From NCBI RefSeq assembly GCF_023055435.1, contig NW_025963780.1, positions 20,398,001-20,462,000 on the forward strand: a stretch of 64,000 bases of DNA. The letters run 5' to 3'. Made by a program: the position numbers. This stretch comes from Haliotis rufescens. Taxonomy: Eukaryota. How positions within the stretch are numbered: the stretch's first letter is position 1; every line of letters starts with the position of its first letter. Shown in pieces: positions 14,201 through 44,700 of the stretch.

Positions 14201-17200
14201 GAATAGGTTTGTATCCTGCCCCATCGGTGGCACCCGTCAGAAACACATGCAAAGGCATGTCAACTGTTCACCTGTGCAAACACGGAAACGTGGTACGTCA
14301 CAACAGCAAATAGCATCTGACATTATTTTTGTTACCAATACGTCAAATTTGGACATGTACTCAACACGTGCACCATACAAAATGAAAAGCCTTACAAGGA
14401 ATGGATACCATGAATTGGAATAAGTTGGATTGGTACGTTTCGCTGAAAGCAAAATAGGTTTACCTTAAGATAAGGTTTCGACATGCTATTTACAGTCCGA
14501 ATGAAACCTCGTTAACATGGACAGTATTATGAAACCGTCTGCAATTAGGATATGTTTTCATGCATCAACCAAATCCCGTTAGTCGCCTCTTACGATAATC
14601 ATGTTATGTAAAGCATGATTTAATGAAGACCAATTCTAAACCGGATCTTCACGGGTAATCTCGAAAACGAAGTAAACTACCTTTCCCGAATGAACATATC
14701 ACAGTCCGCGCCATGTTATTGTTGTGAATATTGTATTCACCCTGTCGTTTCTGAGCACCATCGTACCAACACTCAAAACCCGTATCTCTGTCCAGAGTTA
14801 GTTTTCGTTTGTTAAAATCGAAATTCCGAATTGATATGTTTTTGAGATTCCGCATAGAAATGAAACATTTTTAGAAAGCTGACATCTGATTGGCTCAAAA
14901 CCCAAAGCATCCTTCATTCGCTCAAAGGTCGCTCAGAGTGGCTTCATATCGGGGTAAAAGATGTGATTTTAATAAGATTGCAAGATTGATGATGCGGGCA
15001 TTGATGAAGCAGTACACTCTCTCACCTAGTGGAATATGATTCAGAACATGTTATAAATAGGAACATATCAGTTTTAACTGACTCCATAGAGCGGTTATCC
15101 GTTATACGAAAAATACCAGTAAATTAATGTTGTTTTTCTCCGCTATCAGCCATGTGTTTCCAGCTTCGACAAGGTAGCGAGTCTGGGTCAGGCGCGTCAG
15201 TGGTTGATAGTATGAGCAAATATCGATAACAATAACAACAAACAAATAAAGCATTGGGCATTCCGCACATGTTCCATATCGGAATCCTCACCGGGAAACT
15301 AAATCATGAAGTGGGTTATTTAAAAGTAGGTTATTGAAAACCAAATCGTTTCAATTGAAATATAAACAGTAACGAAATGCTAAATAATAGGCAATGAAGG
15401 ACCGACTGTGGTCTGGCGGTAGAGCATCCCCCGGAGAGCGGAAGGTCAAGGGATTCCCCGGCCGCGTCATACCAAAAGACGTTAAAAGATGGTTCTTTTT
15501 GTTACCCTGTCTGGCGCTCGGCATAAAGGGGATAAAACAATGACTGGTCGGCTACGGAGTCAGTATACTGTGTCTGAGTGGGGTGTTCATGTTAAACTGC
15601 GGCATGGTATCTCAGTGGGCTGGCACTATAGAGTCGACACGCGTGCATGTACGTCGCTATGTAAATGCACTAATTATGGATGTAACGTTAAAACCCCATT
15701 TCACCTCCAATGATACAATGATGATGTTAACATAATGTAAAAACATACTCGTGTGGATTAAATTAAATTTGCAACTATGAGGTAAAGTTGATAACACTGG
15801 AAGCAAACGCAATGGCGAAATTTCTGTTTCGGATATATTGAACGTTTTAGCACAAAAACACTTGACCGATAGATGTCTATGGTGTGATATGTCAGCAGAA
15901 CACGTGTGGGGAATGGAAGGACGAGTACATTATCATGAATGATGGTCTTGCTGATATAAGGAGGATAACAGTCATTGGGTAGAATAGTCTCCCTTGTGGT
16001 TTGGGTTCGAATCCCAAACATGAAACAATATCACAAAAGTTCGGCACATTGGGGAAAATTGTAACCCTGATTTAGTGCTCATGTTTTTGCTATCAGTTCG
16101 ATCGTCGTAGGAGTCGTTCCATCTTCATCAGTATCAGGGTCGTGTGTCGCCCATCTGTGCTTAGGCTGGAAGGCGATGCGTATTTTCTGGGGGCAAATAA
16201 AATAATTTATATTAGAAATAATTCGTAGATTCCCATTTACACGCTACACCGACAGCCAAGAAATAAGACGGTAATATGCAGTGGGTGGTGGAATGAACTG
16301 TTTGTGAACAAGGGCATGAGTGAGTGAGTGAACAAGGGCATGAGTGAGTGAGTGAGTGAGTGAGTGAGTGGGTGAGTATGGTTTAACGCCGCTTTTAGCA
16401 ATATTCCAACAATATCACGGCGGGGGACACCAAAAATGGGCTTCACACATTGTACCCATGTCGGGAATCGAACCCGGGTCTTCGGCGTAACGAGCGAACG
16501 CTTTAACAAACTAAGCTACCAAGGCGAACAAGGGCATCATGTTTTAATGTGTGAGAATTTGGTTTGCTACTAGACTTTTAGGCAATATGAAATAATCTTA
16601 ATGAAATATCTCGACCTCCATAACTTTCCCGCCATATATCATCAAACCAACCAGATGCTCAAGGAACTACATCGGTACAGCTGTGAACTAGCAACGAACT
16701 GTTGGAGGAAGAAATCGAACAGTACACAATGGCTTGAAAAAAACATATACACGTCGCAACGAAATTCGTTTTTTGCACTCAACATTACTTGCTGTTCGTA
16801 GATAATAATGTACGATTCCGATTATATCATAAACATATTTTTATTAAACACCTTCAATACACACTTTGTTCAAAAACTTATGGGTAGAAGACCCCGTGAC
16901 ATTAAACACGGCGCGTTAGTGTAAGCCTCGTTGAGGGAGTAGAGCTTGAAATGAGCTCTGGATCTACCTATTATACATGACATTGAAAGAACTCACCTCG
17001 CGTAAGGAATCTCCCGGGGCCGTGTACACGGAATGGATGAGGAGGATTGGGGTGGGGATGACGGTGGCAACTGAAATAAGCCATCCGAACCATTTGGCCC
17101 ACGGAGGAAAGTTGTACTCTTCAAACTGGGGTGGGTGGTAGGAGTACAGCGAGAAGGCGAACATGACCTGCAATGCGAACACAGGGAGAATCACAATAAG

Positions 17201-41700: not shown

Positions 41701-44700
41701 GGCTTATTAACTTCATTCTTTTTGTATATCGGATAAGTGATGGTTGACTGTTTAACCTGCTCTTACAATTTCAAGTACATCATACTTAAAAACAATCTAC
41801 CTCCCGGGGCAAATGAAATTAAACGTACTGCAAATTCCAAGGTCAAACGTCACCACGCGACTCTTTGTATGACATGCCGGAATGTACGAATGGTCGTGAA
41901 TGTCAACTTACCCCCGCCATTCCTTGCACACATGTAGGGGAACTTCCAAATGCTTCCAACTCCGACCGTGTAGCCCATCAATGTCAGGAAGTAGTCCAGT
42001 TGGTGCGACCATATTTCCCCGCCCATCCTGGATCCAAAACTTGTATTAGTTCATAAGCAAACGAAACGAGACACTGCAACACTTAAATAGGAGACACAGT
42101 TTATACCAGACCGTGCATGCCATGGACCCTGGGACTCCTGTTGTCTCCTGTGCAGACTCCTGTTGTCTCCTGTGCAGACTCCTGTTGTCAAAGTAATCAA
42201 TGGAGCAAAGAATTAGTATAATATCTAAGATATTTCTTAATCTAAGAACTAAGGACTAAGAAGCTATGTGAATGTGACGTAAGAATTGTGTGTGGATTTA
42301 AGAGTTATTATGGCTTAAAATTCTTTTAAGAACGTTTGTGAATACCGACAAAGGTTCTAATGAAATAATGCCAGTATTGATGCTTAACAATGGGGTTCAT
42401 TAAACCTTAATAATGCTATAAGGTTTGTTTGAGCTGACTGATCCCCTATAATATTATTTTACAATCATATCTACGTTATGGAAGCCCAGCTACCAGTAAT
42501 CCCATGCCTGTTGCATGTTGACAGTTTTATTTAGACCAGATAAAAGCACTAGTTTATTTCTATACACTAAATTTCATATTTTACTTCCCTTGTGTCGCCA
42601 AAGTCTCGCGATAGTGACGGGATTTTACTTCGAAAATGACATCAAAGTGAAGTCATAGTGATGAAATAGTGACTCAAAAGTGTTCTCATCCTGACAAAGG
42701 GGATGAAAGTGTATCGTAATACCGCGATAGTGATGCAACAGTGGCGGGAAAAGAGGGGAACTTATTTGTGAAATGCTGTGTATGTCCATGTGGCATTTAC
42801 ACATTAAAGTTTATACTTGGAACGAGGTATACTATATTTTCCTTAATTATTTGTTATTTTAAGATATAAAACTGAAAAAAAGCCACATTTCGATTTTTTC
42901 CAAGTACCAGAAACGCCACTTACCAATTTGACAGAAAGTACCTGGACAGTACAGGGATCAGTGTGTATAGTAATTTCAGATATGATAAAACCCTTATGCA
43001 CTCGCGCACGCACACAACCACACACACTATAAACTATTTCATACTCATTACACTGTTAGGTTTATGTTATATTTTAAATAAGGGCAAATGATGCTTGATT
43101 AGGATTGCACTTTACAGTTAACAACTGTATCTGCCATATCACAGCCGGACAAGTTGATAACGTTGTACAAAGATACCACTCAGCGACTTGAATGAATGGC
43201 CTCTATAAATGGATGAGTTTAAATGTCAGAAATTAATGCTTTGCTTGGTGATGAGGATGCCTAAAGTTTAGATCTTCAATTATTGAATCCATTTTCACAG
43301 TTGCAAATGGCGACAGAGCCTCCTGATGGACTAACTCGCTTTCTTGTCTCGTATTATCGCTTTATCGTCTCGTATTATCGCTTTCTCGTGACCGTATTTG
43401 AAGTCAATAGACCGATGTCCCCTCTGGCCCACCATACGATTTGGGGATTAACCTTGACTCTTCCATCAAACTTAACGTGCGTCGGCTTTAGCTTGTGTCC
43501 TTACCAAGGTCACATATAAATTCGAGGCTACAAAGAAAACGTCTTTGGGATTTTCCAGGCGTGAGTGAACTGAGTTTAACGCCACTTTGAACAGTATTTT
43601 AGTTATGTCACGGCGTGTCAGCTTGACGTGGTTAGAAAACCTGAAATGATGTAATTCTTGGACGTTTACCACTTCGGTGAGGCCCGCAACCACGGCAAAC
43701 CTATAGAAATAATCGGGGCGAAAAGGGAATCGAACCCACAATCATAGGTTTCTGGCATGCACAAGGGACGCAACCAATACTCTGCACAGCGAATTGCGGC
43801 TCTTAGACGTCTGTGCCATGGAACATGGAAATATGATGTGACTGCATTTATGTACTCAATCACTCAAATGAAAGATAATTTCGATATTCAATATGATACA
43901 GTTCAGTTAAAAGTTGTGTACCAAAACAGTTTTACTTTGGTCATAAAATTAGATTTACTGAATAAAATAATTGTAGTTGTTATTCAATTTTTTACCTATT
44001 TGAGTAGTCTTTAACAAGCATTGTGTTAACTGCTGTTGCATTTTTAAACGGAATAAAAAAGCAGAATGGAATTTGGACCTAATCTTGGCAGACTTATTGT
44101 GTTAAAATATGCCTGCACACGCGTAAATCCAAAGCTTTTTATCTATACGTGAACGAAATAATATTATGATCAAGTGCATGTCTCACAGGGCATAGTCCAA
44201 ATGACATCATCTCACTTGACATTAAAATACTAGCTTTTGATTGGCTAAGGAGAGGGCAATTATTTTCCATTGTAGTCCGCTCATGTACCCCATCCGAGAA
44301 ATCAATCGTAACACGCCTTAGGTAACTTTCTTTTCTCGCGTACGAGTCGCATAAGTATCGTTGAGCTGAAATGAACCGATGTTCAATGCATTGGGTAAAG
44401 GGAAGTAACTCGGTTTGAATGAATGTGGGCGAGACAAATTCGTTGCCAACCGATTACTCGGGGCATATGGTATGAAGTACCCCATGTGTGAGTCTATGTA
44501 CCCCGGGCCGTACACAGGCTCACAGATAACGTACACACCATATTCCTAGATTGATAACTGGGAAGGGTACCCATGTTAAACTGAGGCATGGTATCTCAAT
44601 GAGCTAGCACTATAAAACCGGCATTAGTCCGGACTAGTACAAGCAGACACACAGATGCATTCACGTGCTAAAATAAGCGCAATATTTTTTTTAGGCGACG

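What the first reader, a model, noticed from the sequence alone, without database searches (positions are those of the whole stretch)
16079..42026. Intact SLC6 transporter with a rebuilt chloride site, Na1 site and gates
Seen: a full open 593-aa ORF over 13 phase-compatible exons, so it is unlikely to be a pseudogene. I aligned it by eye to GAT1 motifs (numbering from established knowledge). All four Cl- ligands differ: Y86 to F (FLIPF), Q291 to L, S295 to Q, S331 to Q. Na1 ligands N66 and N327 are S (GVGSIWKFPY vs GLGNVWRFPY) and T. The extracellular gate pair R69/D451 is K/E, a paired conservative swap. The intracellular gate R44 is G (GEIW vs RDTW) and Y309 is H. The Na2 motif (GIDS) and the TM3 Tyr are kept, and the cytoplasmic N-terminus is only ~5 aa. 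Inference: a Cl-independent transporter with altered Na+ coupling or substrate, or a non-transporting sensor/partner, possibly from an uncharacterised lineage-specific SLC6 clade.
[Added by the scan's program, not by the reader: the finding's places include an assembly gap (unread letters, written N; its length is only estimated) at 38223 to 38419. Whether the letters on both sides are continuous or in frame is not known: test that first.]
Basis: partly seen in the sequence, partly recalled or inferred. Interest (0 to 1): 0.78.

Follow-up and report, generated by a model that had tools for sequence, protein, structure and literature searches.

The report
Divergent abalone SLC6 transporter gene
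This is an intact red-abalone gene for a neurotransmitter/amino-acid-type (SLC6) membrane transporter whose usual chloride site, first sodium site and both gates have been replaced, as part of an abalone-only gene family that shares most of these changes and whose function has not been tested.

Summary
A 13-exon gene on the minus strand (42026 down to 16079) has 12 GT..AG introns and a 1782-nt coding sequence. It is letter for letter the 593-aa NCBI Haliotis rufescens protein named 'glycine transporter 2-like'. The gap at 38223-38419 lies inside intron 1. Exons 1 and 2 follow each other in the SNF profile, and an independent H. rubra model has the same junction.

Most of the signature is not private to this gene. 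It marks a clade of 27 Haliotis genes from four species, with two bivalve genes as sister group. This gene and its H. rubra orthologue sit on a long stem at the base of that clade. Only they carry S295Q, N327T, S331Q and D410E.

The changes hit 8 of 10 conserved ion-site or gate columns but only 9 of 90 other conserved columns. The core exons are 97% identical between the two species, against 82% for the others.

My reading is a maintained, chloride-independent, probably Na2-only carrier. Function is untested. The H. rubra model is frame-shifted and truncated, which counts against this. Interest is moderate.

The parts
41912..42026 (-). Exon 1: ATG and TM1. It carries G3 (R44 position), S25 (N66), W27 (W68) and K28 (R69). 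It ends in phase 1.
   Evidence: Pfam SNF 43.2 bits, profile positions 2-36. PDB: query 4-38 matches GAT1 7sk2_A 45-79; alignments to GlyT1 and SERT show N to S and R to K.
36816..36947 (-). Exon 2: TM2, with F45 (Y86 position) and E60 (E101).
   Evidence: SNF 42.1 bits, profile positions 39-80, following on from exon 1. Site table.
33413..33728 (-). Exon 3: TM3 with Y99 (Y140 position) and the large extracellular loop 2, which has the Cys pair C123/C132 and five N-x-S/T sequons.
   Evidence: SNF 60.8 bits; C123 and C132 invariant in 70 sequences; sequons at 140, 147, 154, 169, 174.
32370..32502 (-). Exon 4: end of extracellular loop 2 and TM4.
   Evidence: SNF 37.7 bits, profile 162-204.
31442..31576 (-). 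Exon 5: TM5.
   Evidence: SNF 40.6 bits, profile 205-249.
30034..30137 (-). Exon 6: TM6 with L285 (Q291 position), Q289 (S295) and H303 (Y309).
   Evidence: SNF 18.2 bits, below the cut-off; alignment to GlyT1 shows Q to L, S to Q and Y to H.
27326..27450 (-). Exon 7: TM7 with T321 (N327 position), L322 (S328) and Q325 (S331).
   Evidence: SNF 15.8 bits, below the cut-off; weak alignment to the proline transporter (E 0.44) shows N to T and S to Q. The same result comes from the full-length GlyT2 alignment and the MSA.
20497..20609 (-). Exon 8: TM8 with the Na2 motif G-I-D389-S390. Its last ~21 nt plus the donor site form the end unit of a 43-nt tandem array.
   Evidence: (SNF 32.2 bits).
18476..18604 (-). 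Exon 9: end of TM8 with E404 (D410 position), and TM9.
   Evidence: No Pfam match on its own. Aligned within P0001 to GlyT2. The H. rubra model reads its second half in another frame.
18157..18256 (-). Exon 10: TM10 with E444 (D451 position).
   Evidence: (SNF 17.3 bits, below the cut-off).
17361..17461 (-). Exon 11: TM11.
   Evidence: Not sent to Pfam on its own.
16997..17167 (-). Exon 12: TM12.
   Evidence: Not sent to Pfam on its own.
16079..16186 (-). Exon 13: cytoplasmic C-terminus and the TGA stop.
   Evidence: Low model confidence for residues 580-593.
38223..38419 (.). Assembly gap (197 N) inside intron 1. No coding sequence is expected in it.
37026..38447 (.). A perfect 28-nt inverted repeat (37026-37053 and 38420-38447) brackets repeat-like ORFs and the gap. 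The right arm abuts the N run.
   Evidence: Read by eye. It is below the 30-nt limit I set. The ORFs inside it had no Pfam match.

Best explanation
This is an intact, selectively maintained gene of Haliotis rufescens for a 12-helix SLC6/NSS protein. It belongs to an abalone-specific expansion of SLC6 genes.

Shown:
- The fold, the Na2 residues (D389, S390), the TM3 Tyr (Y99), the TM1 Gly that marks carboxylate (amino-acid-type) substrates (G22), E60 and W27 are kept.
- None of the four canonical chloride ligands remains (F45, L285, Q289, Q325).
- The three Na1 side chains are S25, Q289 and T321 in place of Asn, Ser and Asn.
- The outer gate pair is Lys/Glu in place of Arg/Asp.
- The inner gate triad is Gly/His/Glu in place of Arg/Tyr/Asp.

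Inferred:
- The protein cannot bind chloride at the canonical site.
- It has no acidic residue nearby to stand in for chloride. LeuT has E290 for this, KAAT1 has D338, and 21 of its 25 paralogues have Asp at the N327 position.
- The two added Gln side chains and the Leu most likely fill the former chloride/Na1 cavity.
- Transport would then be chloride-independent and driven through Na2 alone, at about one Na+ per amino-acid-like substrate, with re-paired gates (K28-E444 outside, H303-E404 inside).

The substrate is unknown.
For: Gene model:
- The model is intact and equals NCBI's protein.
- 9 of the 10 exons sent to Pfam match SNF in profile order, 6 of them above the cut-off.
- Nearest solved structure by sequence is GlyT2, E 2.9e-127.
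- The AF2 model has pLDDT 88.5 and pTM 0.88. It matches SLC6 structures at target-normalised TM-scores of 0.89-0.96 in the top 50, and fits 9km3 (GlyT2 with glycine) at rmsd 1.9 A.

The changes are targeted, not scattered:
- P0001 deviates at 8 of 10 conserved functional columns and at 9 of 90 others, p = 4.9e-6.
- P0001 keeps 83 of 100 columns that are at least 90% conserved in 91 ordinary SLC6 proteins. That is the same range as its paralogues (75-84%).

Constraint between species:
- 16 of the 17 deviating residues have a counterpart in H. rubra, and 15 of those 16 are identical there.
- Core exons 1, 2, 6, 8 and 10 are 179/185 identical, against 192/233 for exons 3, 4, 5 and 7, p = 1.6e-6.
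- Overall identity of 85.7% is similar to two other rufescens-rubra pairs (90.8% and 84.5%).
- The EL2 Cys pair and five sequons are kept.

Roles of the sites, from passages read in two reviews:
- PMC10137170: Cl- site Y86, Q291, S295, N327, S328, S331; Na1 N66, S295, N327; Na2 D395, S396; gates R69-D451 and R44-D410; a negative charge beside Na1 is needed; the D410E/D451E double mutant is active.
- PMC8310414: KAAT1 D338 equals LeuT N286 and is linked to weak chloride dependence.
Against: - No transcript, expression or transport data could be seen.
- In GAT1, R69K and the R69K/D451E double mutant block transport. Q291 mutants lose uptake, and N327 mutants are slowed 20 to 80 fold (PMC10137170). 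By the GAT1 standard this combination would be dead.
- The same review states that a negative charge next to Na1 is essential. This protein has neither a chloride site nor an acidic residue there.
- The only orthologue found (H. rubra, P0002) reads half of exon 9 in another frame and ends by reading into intron 10. As annotated it lacks a proper TM9 and all of TM11-12. This could be decay or an assembly or annotation error.
- No orthologue above 50% identity was listed for H. asinina or H. cracherodii. No short fragments were found either.
- The lineage sits on a long stem of 0.76-0.88 changes per site.
- dN/dS could not be computed, because no H. rubra DNA was available.
- Side-chain geometry could not be inspected, because the model's coordinates are not returned.
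Confidence: 0.5

Rival explanations
1. A non-transporting SLC6 derivative. It would bind ligand but be uncoupled, acting as a sensor ('transceptor'), a leak channel or a partner subunit rather than a carrier.
For: - Both gates and both the Na1 and Cl- sites are changed at positions where GAT1 mutants are inactive.
- The family is a lineage-specific expansion with long branches and a variable EL2. That pattern is also seen in receptor families (general knowledge).
- The conserved W68 is lost in many paralogues, though not in this gene.
Against: - The Na2 residues, Y99, G22, E60, W27 and 83 of 100 conserved core columns are kept. That is more than binding alone would seem to need.
- Natural gate pairs stay charge-complementary (K/E outside, H/E inside).
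- No signalling domain or long tail is present: the N-terminus is about 8 residues and the C-terminus about 35.
Confidence: 0.17
2. A gene on its way to becoming a pseudogene. It would be a relic copy that is still open in H. rufescens only by recent history.
For: - The H. rubra model is frame-shifted in exon 9 and truncated after exon 10.
- No orthologue is listed in H. asinina or H. cracherodii.
- The stem branch is long.
- Residues essential in GAT1 are lost.
Against: - 593 codons are open across 13 exons, with 12 canonical introns.
- Substitutions between species avoid the core exons (p = 1.6e-6).
- Deviations from the family consensus are concentrated on 8 of 10 functional columns rather than spread out.
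- The terminal branch of P0001 is short, at 0.04-0.05.
- The model folds with high confidence.
- Most of the 'lost' residues are equally lost in about 25 paralogues kept in four species.
Confidence: 0.13
3. An ordinary Na+/Cl--dependent glycine transporter 2 orthologue, as the automatic NCBI name suggests.
For: GlyT2 is the best-scoring solved structure by sequence and the top structural match. The database name is given.
Against: - Identity to the GlyT2 structure 9hue is only 34% over the Foldseek alignment.
- 0 of 4 chloride ligands and 0 of 3 Na1 side chains are canonical.
- There is no long N-terminus.
- The gene lies in a mollusc-only clade, apart from the vertebrate, insect and cnidarian sequences in the trees. 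No true GlyT2 sequence was in those trees.
Confidence: 0.03
4. A chimeric model made by a wrong scaffold join: exon 1, on the far side of the gap, belongs to another copy.
For: Exon 1 is separated from exons 2-13 by an N run of estimated length.
Against: - The profile positions and phases run on across the junction.
- The window has only one exon-1-like and one exon-2-like stretch.
- H. rubra's independent model has the same junction, with 37 of 38 and 42 of 43 identical residues.
- The two flanks of the gap share a 28-nt inverted repeat.
Confidence: 0.03

Closest known systems
Glycine transporter 2 (SLC6A5), e.g. PDB 9w8j, 9hue, 9km3
   Same: - Best sequence match among solved structures (E 2.9e-127) and best structural match (TM 0.87-0.96).
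- Same 12-helix LeuT fold.
- Gly at the TM1 position that marks amino-acid substrates, the TM3 Tyr and the Na2 Asp are shared.
   Different: - About 34% identity only.
- This protein lacks the long N-terminus.
- In the GlyT2 alignment it has S for N, K for R, F for Y, L for Q, Q for S, H for Y, T for N, Q for S, and E for D twice.
- It is not an orthologue by tree position.
GABA transporter 1 (SLC6A1), the reference for the site numbering
   Same: Same family and fold. Y140, D395, S396, E101 and W68 are kept.
   Different: All of Y86, Q291, S295, S331 (Cl-), N66, S295, N327 (Na1), R69/D451, and R44/D410 with Y309 are replaced. Several of the single changes inactivate GAT1 (PMC10137170).
The other ~25 Haliotis paralogues of the same clade (e.g. 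P0003-P0022; automatic names such as 'GABA transporter 3-like' and 'dopamine transporter-like')
   Same: - 44-50% identity.
- Same start with no N-terminal tail.
- Shared changes: N66 to S/T/A/G, R69 to K (20 of 23 filled), Y86 to F, Q291 to Y/F/L/S (27 of 27 not Q), Y309 to H (25 of 27), and S331 mostly not Ser.
   Different: - 21 of the 25 paralogues have Asp at the N327 position, and 20 of 25 keep S295.
- This gene has Thr at N327 and Gln at S295, plus Q325 and E404.
- Many paralogues have lost W68; this gene keeps it.
Insect nutrient amino acid transporters KAAT1/CAATCH1 (and B0AT1/2)
   Same: They are SLC6 members with weak or no chloride dependence and a changed Na1 site. KAAT1 D338 equals LeuT N286 and GAT1 N327 (PMC8310414). 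The Haliotis paralogues resemble them at this position.
   Different: - This gene has a neutral Thr there, so it lacks the negative charge used to explain their chloride independence.
- The closest B0AT1 chain fell outside the 60 best chains listed in the full-length PDB search, so it is more distant than GlyT, GAT and DAT.
LeuT and other bacterial NSS
   Same: Chloride-independent members of the same fold.
   Different: Their independence comes from Glu290 at the S331 position. Here that position is an uncharged Gln.
NTT5 (SLC6A16), a mammalian orphan
   Same: It is an SLC6 member whose S331-equivalent is not Ser but Leu, according to PMC10137170. Its function is unknown.
   Different: No sequence comparison was made here. 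Only that single position is known to me from the passage read.

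Membership tests
SLC6 / NSS (Pfam SNF, PF00209) | Significant match to the SNF profile along the whole protein | tested here: met
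   9 of the 10 exons sent match SNF in profile order (positions 2 to 440), 6 of them above the 27-bit cut-off. Exons 11-13 were not sent on their own. P0001 carries a precomputed PF00209 domain.
SLC6 / NSS (Pfam SNF, PF00209) | 12-helix LeuT fold with a broken TM6 | tested here: met
   AF2 pLDDT 88.5, pTM 0.88, with a break in the helix at residues 291-295. Foldseek TM-scores of 0.83-0.96 to GlyT2, NET, DAT, GAT1, GlyT1 and TauT.
SLC6 / NSS (Pfam SNF, PF00209) | Na2 site side chains (GAT1 D395, S396) | tested here: met
   D389 and S390. The backbone ligands cannot be judged from sequence.
SLC6 / NSS (Pfam SNF, PF00209) | Na1 site side chains (GAT1 N66, S295, N327) | tested here: not met
   S25, Q289 and T321. 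All three still carry oxygen, so cation binding is not excluded.
SLC6 / NSS (Pfam SNF, PF00209) | Extracellular gate Arg-Asp pair (GAT1 R69-D451) | tested here: not met
   K28 and E444. The charges are kept but the residues are changed.
SLC6 / NSS (Pfam SNF, PF00209) | Intracellular gate (GAT1 R44-D410, with Y309) | tested here: not met
   G3, E404 and H303. G3 lies just outside the aligned stretch. Its equivalence to R44 is by ungapped extension and by the MSA column. The role of Y309 is recalled, not taken from a paper read here.
Na+/Cl--dependent neurotransmitter transporters (eukaryotic SLC6 in the narrow sense) | Chloride site Tyr, Gln, Ser, Ser (GAT1 Y86, Q291, S295, S331) | tested here: not met
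   F45, L285, Q289 and Q325: 0 of 4.
Na+/Cl--dependent neurotransmitter transporters (eukaryotic SLC6 in the narrow sense) | Transport that depends on Na+ and Cl- | not testable with these tools
   This needs uptake or electrophysiology.
Chloride-independent NSS of the LeuT or KAAT1 kind | An acidic side chain beside Na1 (LeuT E290 position, or KAAT1 D338 position) | tested here: not met
   Q325 and T321. By contrast, 21 of the 25 paralogues have Asp at the N327 position.
Glycine transporter 2 orthologues (the database name) | Long cytoplasmic N-terminus and orthology to SLC6A5 | tested here: not met
   - The protein starts 5 residues before the TM1 Trp. GlyT2 chain 9wbr_A aligns from its residue 194.
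- The gene falls in a mollusc-only clade.
- No vertebrate GlyT2 was in the trees, so the orthology part is judged only indirectly.
Haliotis-specific SLC6 clade (unnamed) | Monophyly with the Haliotis paralogues, and the shared signature K at R69, non-Asn at N66, non-Gln at Q291, His at Y309 | tested here: met
   27-row clade at 100 SH-aLRT (LG+G4). 20-row clade at 99 (LG+C20 PMSF quick tree; the careful search did not finish). Signature.

The most novel reading that the evidence does not exclude
Abalones may have evolved a whole family of SLC6 proteins (at least 27 genes in four species) that has given up chloride and Na1 coupling.

This gene is the earliest and most derived branch of that family. 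It has no anion site and no substitute charge at all, which runs against the rule that a negative charge beside Na1 is essential. It would work either as a one-sodium (Na2-only) or ion-uncoupled carrier, with its own Gln side chains standing in for the ions. Or it would work as an amino-acid/GABA-type chemosensor.

The sensor reading is attractive because red abalone larvae are classically reported to settle in response to GABA-like cues, and to take up dissolved amino acids from sea water. Both points are recalled, not checked in a paper here.
Probability: 0.12. Interest if true: 0.8.

Novelty: new variant of a known kind. Interest (0 to 1): 0.5.

Why it matters
SLC6 transporters are a textbook case of ion-coupled transport. 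The accepted rule is that a negative charge, either bound chloride or an acidic side chain, must sit beside the Na1 sodium (PMC10137170, passages read).

This gene keeps the fold and the Na2 site but has neither chloride ligands nor a substitute acid, and both gates are re-paired. If it transports, it is a natural experiment. It would show how the coupling machinery can be rebuilt, and it offers ready-made reversion mutants.

The surrounding abalone-only family also shows that automatic names such as 'glycine transporter 2-like' and 'dopamine transporter-like' are misleading for these genes. This matters for transcriptome studies of abalone nutrition, osmoregulation and settlement.

If the gene does not transport, it is one more divergent paralogue of limited interest.

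Tried and rejected
- **Missing exon in the gap.** Rejected. The SNF profile positions run from 36 to 39 across the exon 1/2 junction, which has one split codon. H. rubra has the same junction.
- **Tandem SLC6 copies in the window.** tblastn with 8 proteins (P0001, six Haliotis clade or neighbouring proteins, and one distant one) hit only the 13 exons.
- **Long ORFs in the flanks.** They gave transposase and repeat fragments and no clear neighbour gene.
- **Penelope-like guess.** By eye I took the ORFs at 37218-38090 for a Penelope-like element. Pfam gave no match for 3 of 3 ORFs, so I drop the name. The Tc1-like guess for 40973-41501 also had no Pfam match, for 2 of 2 ORFs.
- **Orthologues.** Only H. 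rubra was above 50% identity among the 120 proteins listed of 261 and among the 150 representatives listed. A search for short proteins with residues 392-593 found none of 93 candidates at E <= 1e-8.
- **P0001's 90% cluster.** One search lists 2 member sequences.
- **dN/dS.** Not possible. No abalone DNA other than the window was available, and genome contigs holds only bacteria and archaea, so I did not use it. As a proxy I compared amino-acid identity per exon.
- **Is the signature unique?** No. 20 of the 148 nearest representatives have at least 2 changes among N66, R69, Q291, S295 and S331, and one of them (P0136) also has Gln at S295. None shows the full combination. Their origin is unknown.
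- **Careful tree.** It did not finish in 300 s. I report the quick PMSF tree from that call and the quick LG+G4 tree. Both give the same placement. The basal position of a long branch remains less certain than its membership of the clade.
- **Literature.** Six searches found no paper on this abalone clade or on mollusc SLC6 proteins with lost Cl-/Na1 sites. PMC8557453 only lists an 'SLC6A14' in a differentiation island of other abalone species (passages). Supplementary files were not asked for. Gene lists in supplements of abalone genome or transcriptome papers could mention this gene.
- **Not used.** Complex prediction, the protein-atlas search, Rfam and tRNA tools had no bearing on the question.
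- **Closed collections.** Whether related genes occur there is unchecked.
- **Human sequence.** The contig is not human. It is Haliotis rufescens by 100% identity to an NCBI protein of that species.

Full report
**1. What is there**

The window is abalone DNA. Exon 3 translated on its own finds, at 100% identity, a 593-aa NCBI protein of Haliotis rufescens named 'sodium- and chloride-dependent glycine transporter 2-like' (P0001). It is not human.

On the minus strand I located 13 exons running from the ATG at 42026 to the TGA ending at 16079.
- All 12 introns begin GT and end AG.
- The exon lengths add to 1782 nt.
- The phases fit, and the six split codons are not stops.
- The 13 exon translations occur in order in P0001, with exactly one residue between them wherever a codon is split, covering 593 of 593 residues.

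They coincide with the public gene model.

**2. The gap, tested first**

The N run 38223-38419 lies inside intron 1 (36948-41911), so no codon crosses it. What it separates is exon 1 from exons 2-13. Five observations argue that nothing coding is missing and that the two sides belong together:
- Exon 1 matches positions 2-36 of the Pfam SNF profile and exon 2 matches 39-80, with one split codon between them.
- The donor and the acceptor are both in phase 1.
- tblastn with eight SLC6 proteins finds one exon-1-like and one exon-2-like stretch in the whole window.
- The H. rubra orthologue P0002, from another assembly, has the same junction. It is 37/38 identical in exon 1 and 42/43 in exon 2.
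- A perfect 28-nt inverted repeat has one arm at 37026-37053 and the other at 38420-38447, right against the N run. The two flanks therefore look like parts of one local structure.

The real length of the intron and the scaffold join itself cannot be verified here.

**3. The joined step**

Full-length work used the stored public record P0001 by its id. This is set out in Tried and rejected.

**4. The residues**

Site numbering follows GAT1, as given in a review of which I read passages (PMC10137170):

| Site | GAT1 residues |
|---|---|
| Chloride site | Y86, Q291, S295, N327, S328, S331 |
| Na1 | N66, S295, N327 |
| Na2 | D395, S396 |
| Outer gate | R69-D451 |
| Inner gate | R44-D410 |

The role of Y309 is recalled, not read.

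Evidence for the mapping:
- Exon 1 aligns without gaps to GAT1 chain 7sk2_A residues 45-79. It shows GVGS-IWK against GLGN-VWR in GlyT1 and SERT.
- Exon 6 against GlyT1 shows Q to L, S to Q and Y to H.
- Exon 7 matches only weakly on its own (E 0.3-0.8). Against the proline transporter it shows N to T and S to Q.
- The full-length alignment of P0001 to GlyT2 and a MAFFT alignment of 120 homologues give the same answers.

| GAT1 position | This protein |
|---|---|
| R44 | G3 |
| N66 | S25 |
| R69 | K28 |
| Y86 | F45 |
| Q291 | L285 |
| S295 | Q289 |
| Y309 | H303 |
| N327 | T321 |
| S328 | L322 |
| S331 | Q325 |
| D410 | E404 |
| D451 | E444 |

Kept are W27 (W68), G22 (G63), E60 (E101), Y99 (Y140), D389 and S390 (D395, S396). 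D410 to E is new.

**5. Targeted change, not scattered decay**

Among 91 ordinary SLC6 proteins in the alignment, 100 columns are at least 90% conserved.
- P0001 keeps 83 of them. Its Haliotis paralogues keep 75-84%, and seven ordinary SLC6 sequences checked keep 87-99%.
- Ten of the 100 columns are ion-site or gate positions named in the review. P0001 deviates at 8 of these 10 and at 9 of the other 90 (Fisher p = 4.9e-6).
- The list of functional positions was chosen after seeing the finding, so this p-value is descriptive.

The AF2 model, built on 70 aligned sequences, has pLDDT 88.5 and pTM 0.88. Only part of extracellular loop 2 and the last 14 residues are uncertain. The model superposes on GlyT2, NET, DAT, GAT1, GlyT1 and TauT structures with target-normalised TM-scores of 0.89-0.96, and on GlyT2 with glycine (9km3) at rmsd 1.9 A. 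The EL2 cysteine pair and five glycosylation sequons are present.

**6. A family trait with private additions**

The word-index search lists about 25 further Haliotis proteins at 44-50% identity, from H. rufescens, H. rubra, H. asinina and H. cracherodii. Two bivalve proteins follow at 41%, other molluscs at 36-39%, and vertebrate GAT2 and DAT at 33-35%.

In a 64-row tree, the 27 Haliotis sequences form one clade (SH-aLRT 100). Its sister is Mercenaria plus Dreissena (100). P0001 and P0002 form a pair (100) on a stem of 0.76 changes per site, sister to the other 25 (99). A 32-row tree under the C20 mixture model gives the same picture (99, 100, 100, 97; stem 0.88). The careful search did not finish, so these are quick trees.

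Within the clade:

| GAT1 position | State in the Haliotis clade |
|---|---|
| N66 | 0 of 23 filled sequences keep Asn |
| R69 | 20 of 23 have Lys |
| Q291 | 0 of 27 keep Gln |
| Y309 | 25 of 27 have His |
| R44 | most often His |
| Y86 | Phe in nearly all |
| S331 | mostly Thr, Asn, Ala or Cys |

Five of five paralogues tested begin at the same ATG position, so the missing N-terminal tail is also a family trait.

The paralogues differ from this gene in two ways. 21 of 25 have Asp at the N327 position, and 20 of 25 keep S295.

The bivalve sisters already have Asp at N66 and N327, Ile at Y86 and Gly at S331, but keep R44, R69, Q291, S295, Y309 and D451. The chloride site therefore began to go before the abalone expansion.

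Private to P0001 and P0002 are Gln at S295, Thr at N327, Gln at S331 and Glu at D410. Glu at D451 is shared with three paralogues.

**7. Is it maintained?**

For:
- The open frame and the canonical splice sites.
- Of the 17 deviating residues, 16 have a counterpart in H. rubra, and 15 of those 16 are identical there.
- Substitutions between the two species avoid the core. Exons 1, 2, 6, 8 and 10 are 179/185 identical, and exons 3, 4, 5 and 7 are 192/233 (p = 1.6e-6).
- Overall identity of 85.7% is in the range of two other rufescens-rubra SLC6 pairs, at 90.8% and 84.5%.
- The terminal branch of P0001 is short, at 0.04-0.05.

Against:
- The H. rubra model (479 aa) reads the second half of exon 9 in what is frame 2 of the window's exon 9. 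It ends by reading into intron 10. As annotated it has no proper TM9 and no TM11-12. Whether this is decay, an assembly indel or an annotation artefact cannot be told without its DNA.
- No orthologue above 50% identity was listed for H. asinina or H. cracherodii.

**8. How it most likely works**

Shown: an SLC6 fold with Na2 residues, the TM3 Tyr and the amino-acid-type TM1 Gly, but without any canonical chloride ligand and without an acidic residue near Na1.

From the literature read:
- Chloride independence in LeuT comes from Glu290 at the S331 position.
- GAT1 S331E/D works without chloride.
- KAAT1's weak chloride dependence is ascribed to Asp338 at the N327 position.

The paralogues with Asp at N327 fit the KAAT1 pattern. 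This gene does not, because it has Thr there.

My inference:
- Q289 and Q325 are each three heavy atoms larger than Ser. Together with L285 they occupy the old chloride/Na1 cavity.
- The protein therefore needs neither chloride nor a second sodium, and is driven through Na2 alone.
- Lys28-Glu444 replaces Arg-Asp at the outer gate.
- His303-Glu404 replaces Arg44-Asp410 at the inner gate. In GAT1 the D410E/D451E double mutant is active although each single mutant is not.

This is a hypothesis. In GAT1 itself, R69K, R69K/D451E and the Q291 mutants are inactive. No functional data exist for any member of the clade that I could find. The rivals are a non-transporting sensor or partner, a relic on the way to loss, the database's GlyT2 reading, and a chimeric model. 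They are weighed in their own sections.

**9. Comparison and novelty**

The gene is a member of SLC6 by profile, fold and Na2 site. It fails the defining chloride-site and Na1 tests of the Na+/Cl--dependent subfamily, and it fails the acidic-residue test of the known chloride-independent members.

Altered ion sites are not rare among its nearest relatives. 20 of 148 representative proteins have at least two changes at five key positions, and one also has Gln at S295. The full combination is found only here and in H. rubra.

I rate it a new variant of a known kind. The gene model itself is already public under a misleading automatic name.

**10. Verdict**

Interest is moderate (0.5). A specialist would find a natural SLC6 protein with no anion site and no substitute charge surprising. 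But most of the oddity is shared by a whole uncharacterised family, nothing is known of expression or function, and the only orthologue model is damaged.

Noticed in passing
window 18809-20512 (intron 8, reaching into exon 8 at 20497-20512): A 43-nt tandem array of 39.6 copies at 92% match. Its end unit is the last ~21 nt of exon 8 (the codons of the Na2 motif G-I-D-S-L) plus the splice donor. About 39 near copies of a strong donor (AG|GTGAGT) therefore follow the real one at 43-nt steps. In the copies read, TAG stands where the exon has TTG.
   Followed up: partly
window 38855-40702 (intron 1; 38731-40826 by the repeat finder): A 62-nt tandem array of about 30 copies at 92% match.
   Followed up: partly
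window 37026-37053 and 38420-38447: A perfect 28-nt inverted repeat brackets about 1.4 kb of repeat-like ORFs and the assembly gap. The right arm touches the N run. The ORFs inside it (37218-38090, minus strand) looked like a GIY-YIG/reverse-transcriptase element by eye but had no Pfam match.
   Followed up: partly
window 26020-26745 (-) and 21659-21853 (+), intron 7: Remains of a Harbinger/PIF-type transposon: DDE_Tnp_4 (E 1.9e-5) with HTH_Tnp_4, and a Myb_DNA-bind_5 ORF (E 1.5e-8).
   Followed up: partly
window 2480-3520 (-): A Tc1/mariner-type transposase in two adjoining ORFs: DDE_3 (E 4.5e-12) and HTH_Tnp_Tc3_2 (E 2.4e-9). A second, degenerate transposase-like stretch at about 40790-41500 (+) in intron 1 had no Pfam match.
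   Followed up: partly
window 31642-32280 (intron 4): A long imperfect trinucleotide repeat (period 3, 213 copies, 69% match). It is open in several frames and gives 130-249-aa low-complexity ORFs that are not genes.
   Followed up: no
window e.g. 17531-17821, 27012-27194, 30625-30870, 31277-31408, 48170-48448, 58035-58409, 63188-63475: A dispersed short repeat on both strands and inside several introns. It is recognisable in translation by '...RPPSYSWNIA.CGVKQ...' and '...SGPDNPVIDIMSIDPRNWDTMT.INQVS.PDHPIPL...'. It is probably a SINE/MITE-like family and was seen only in the ORF lists.
   Followed up: no
window 5164-6789 (both strands): A long tandem repeat region that gives 120-220-aa repetitive ORFs ('GLVNAFVLNVFSFK...'). 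The period was not measured.
   Followed up: no
window 50829-50958: A second assembly gap (130 N), outside the gene.
   Followed up: no
P0002 (H. rubra orthologue; no window coordinates), compared with window exon 9 (18476-18604) and intron 10: The H. rubra protein model switches to another frame in the second half of exon 9 and ends in an intron 10 read-through. It lacks TM9 proper and TM11-12. This is a real lesion or an assembly or annotation error.
   Followed up: partly
P0023 and P0024 (Mercenaria, Dreissena; no window coordinates): The bivalve sister genes carry Asp at both Na1 Asn positions (N66 and N327), Ile at Y86 and Gly at S331. They keep the gates, Q291 and S295. This is another uncharacterised ion-site variant.
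   Followed up: no
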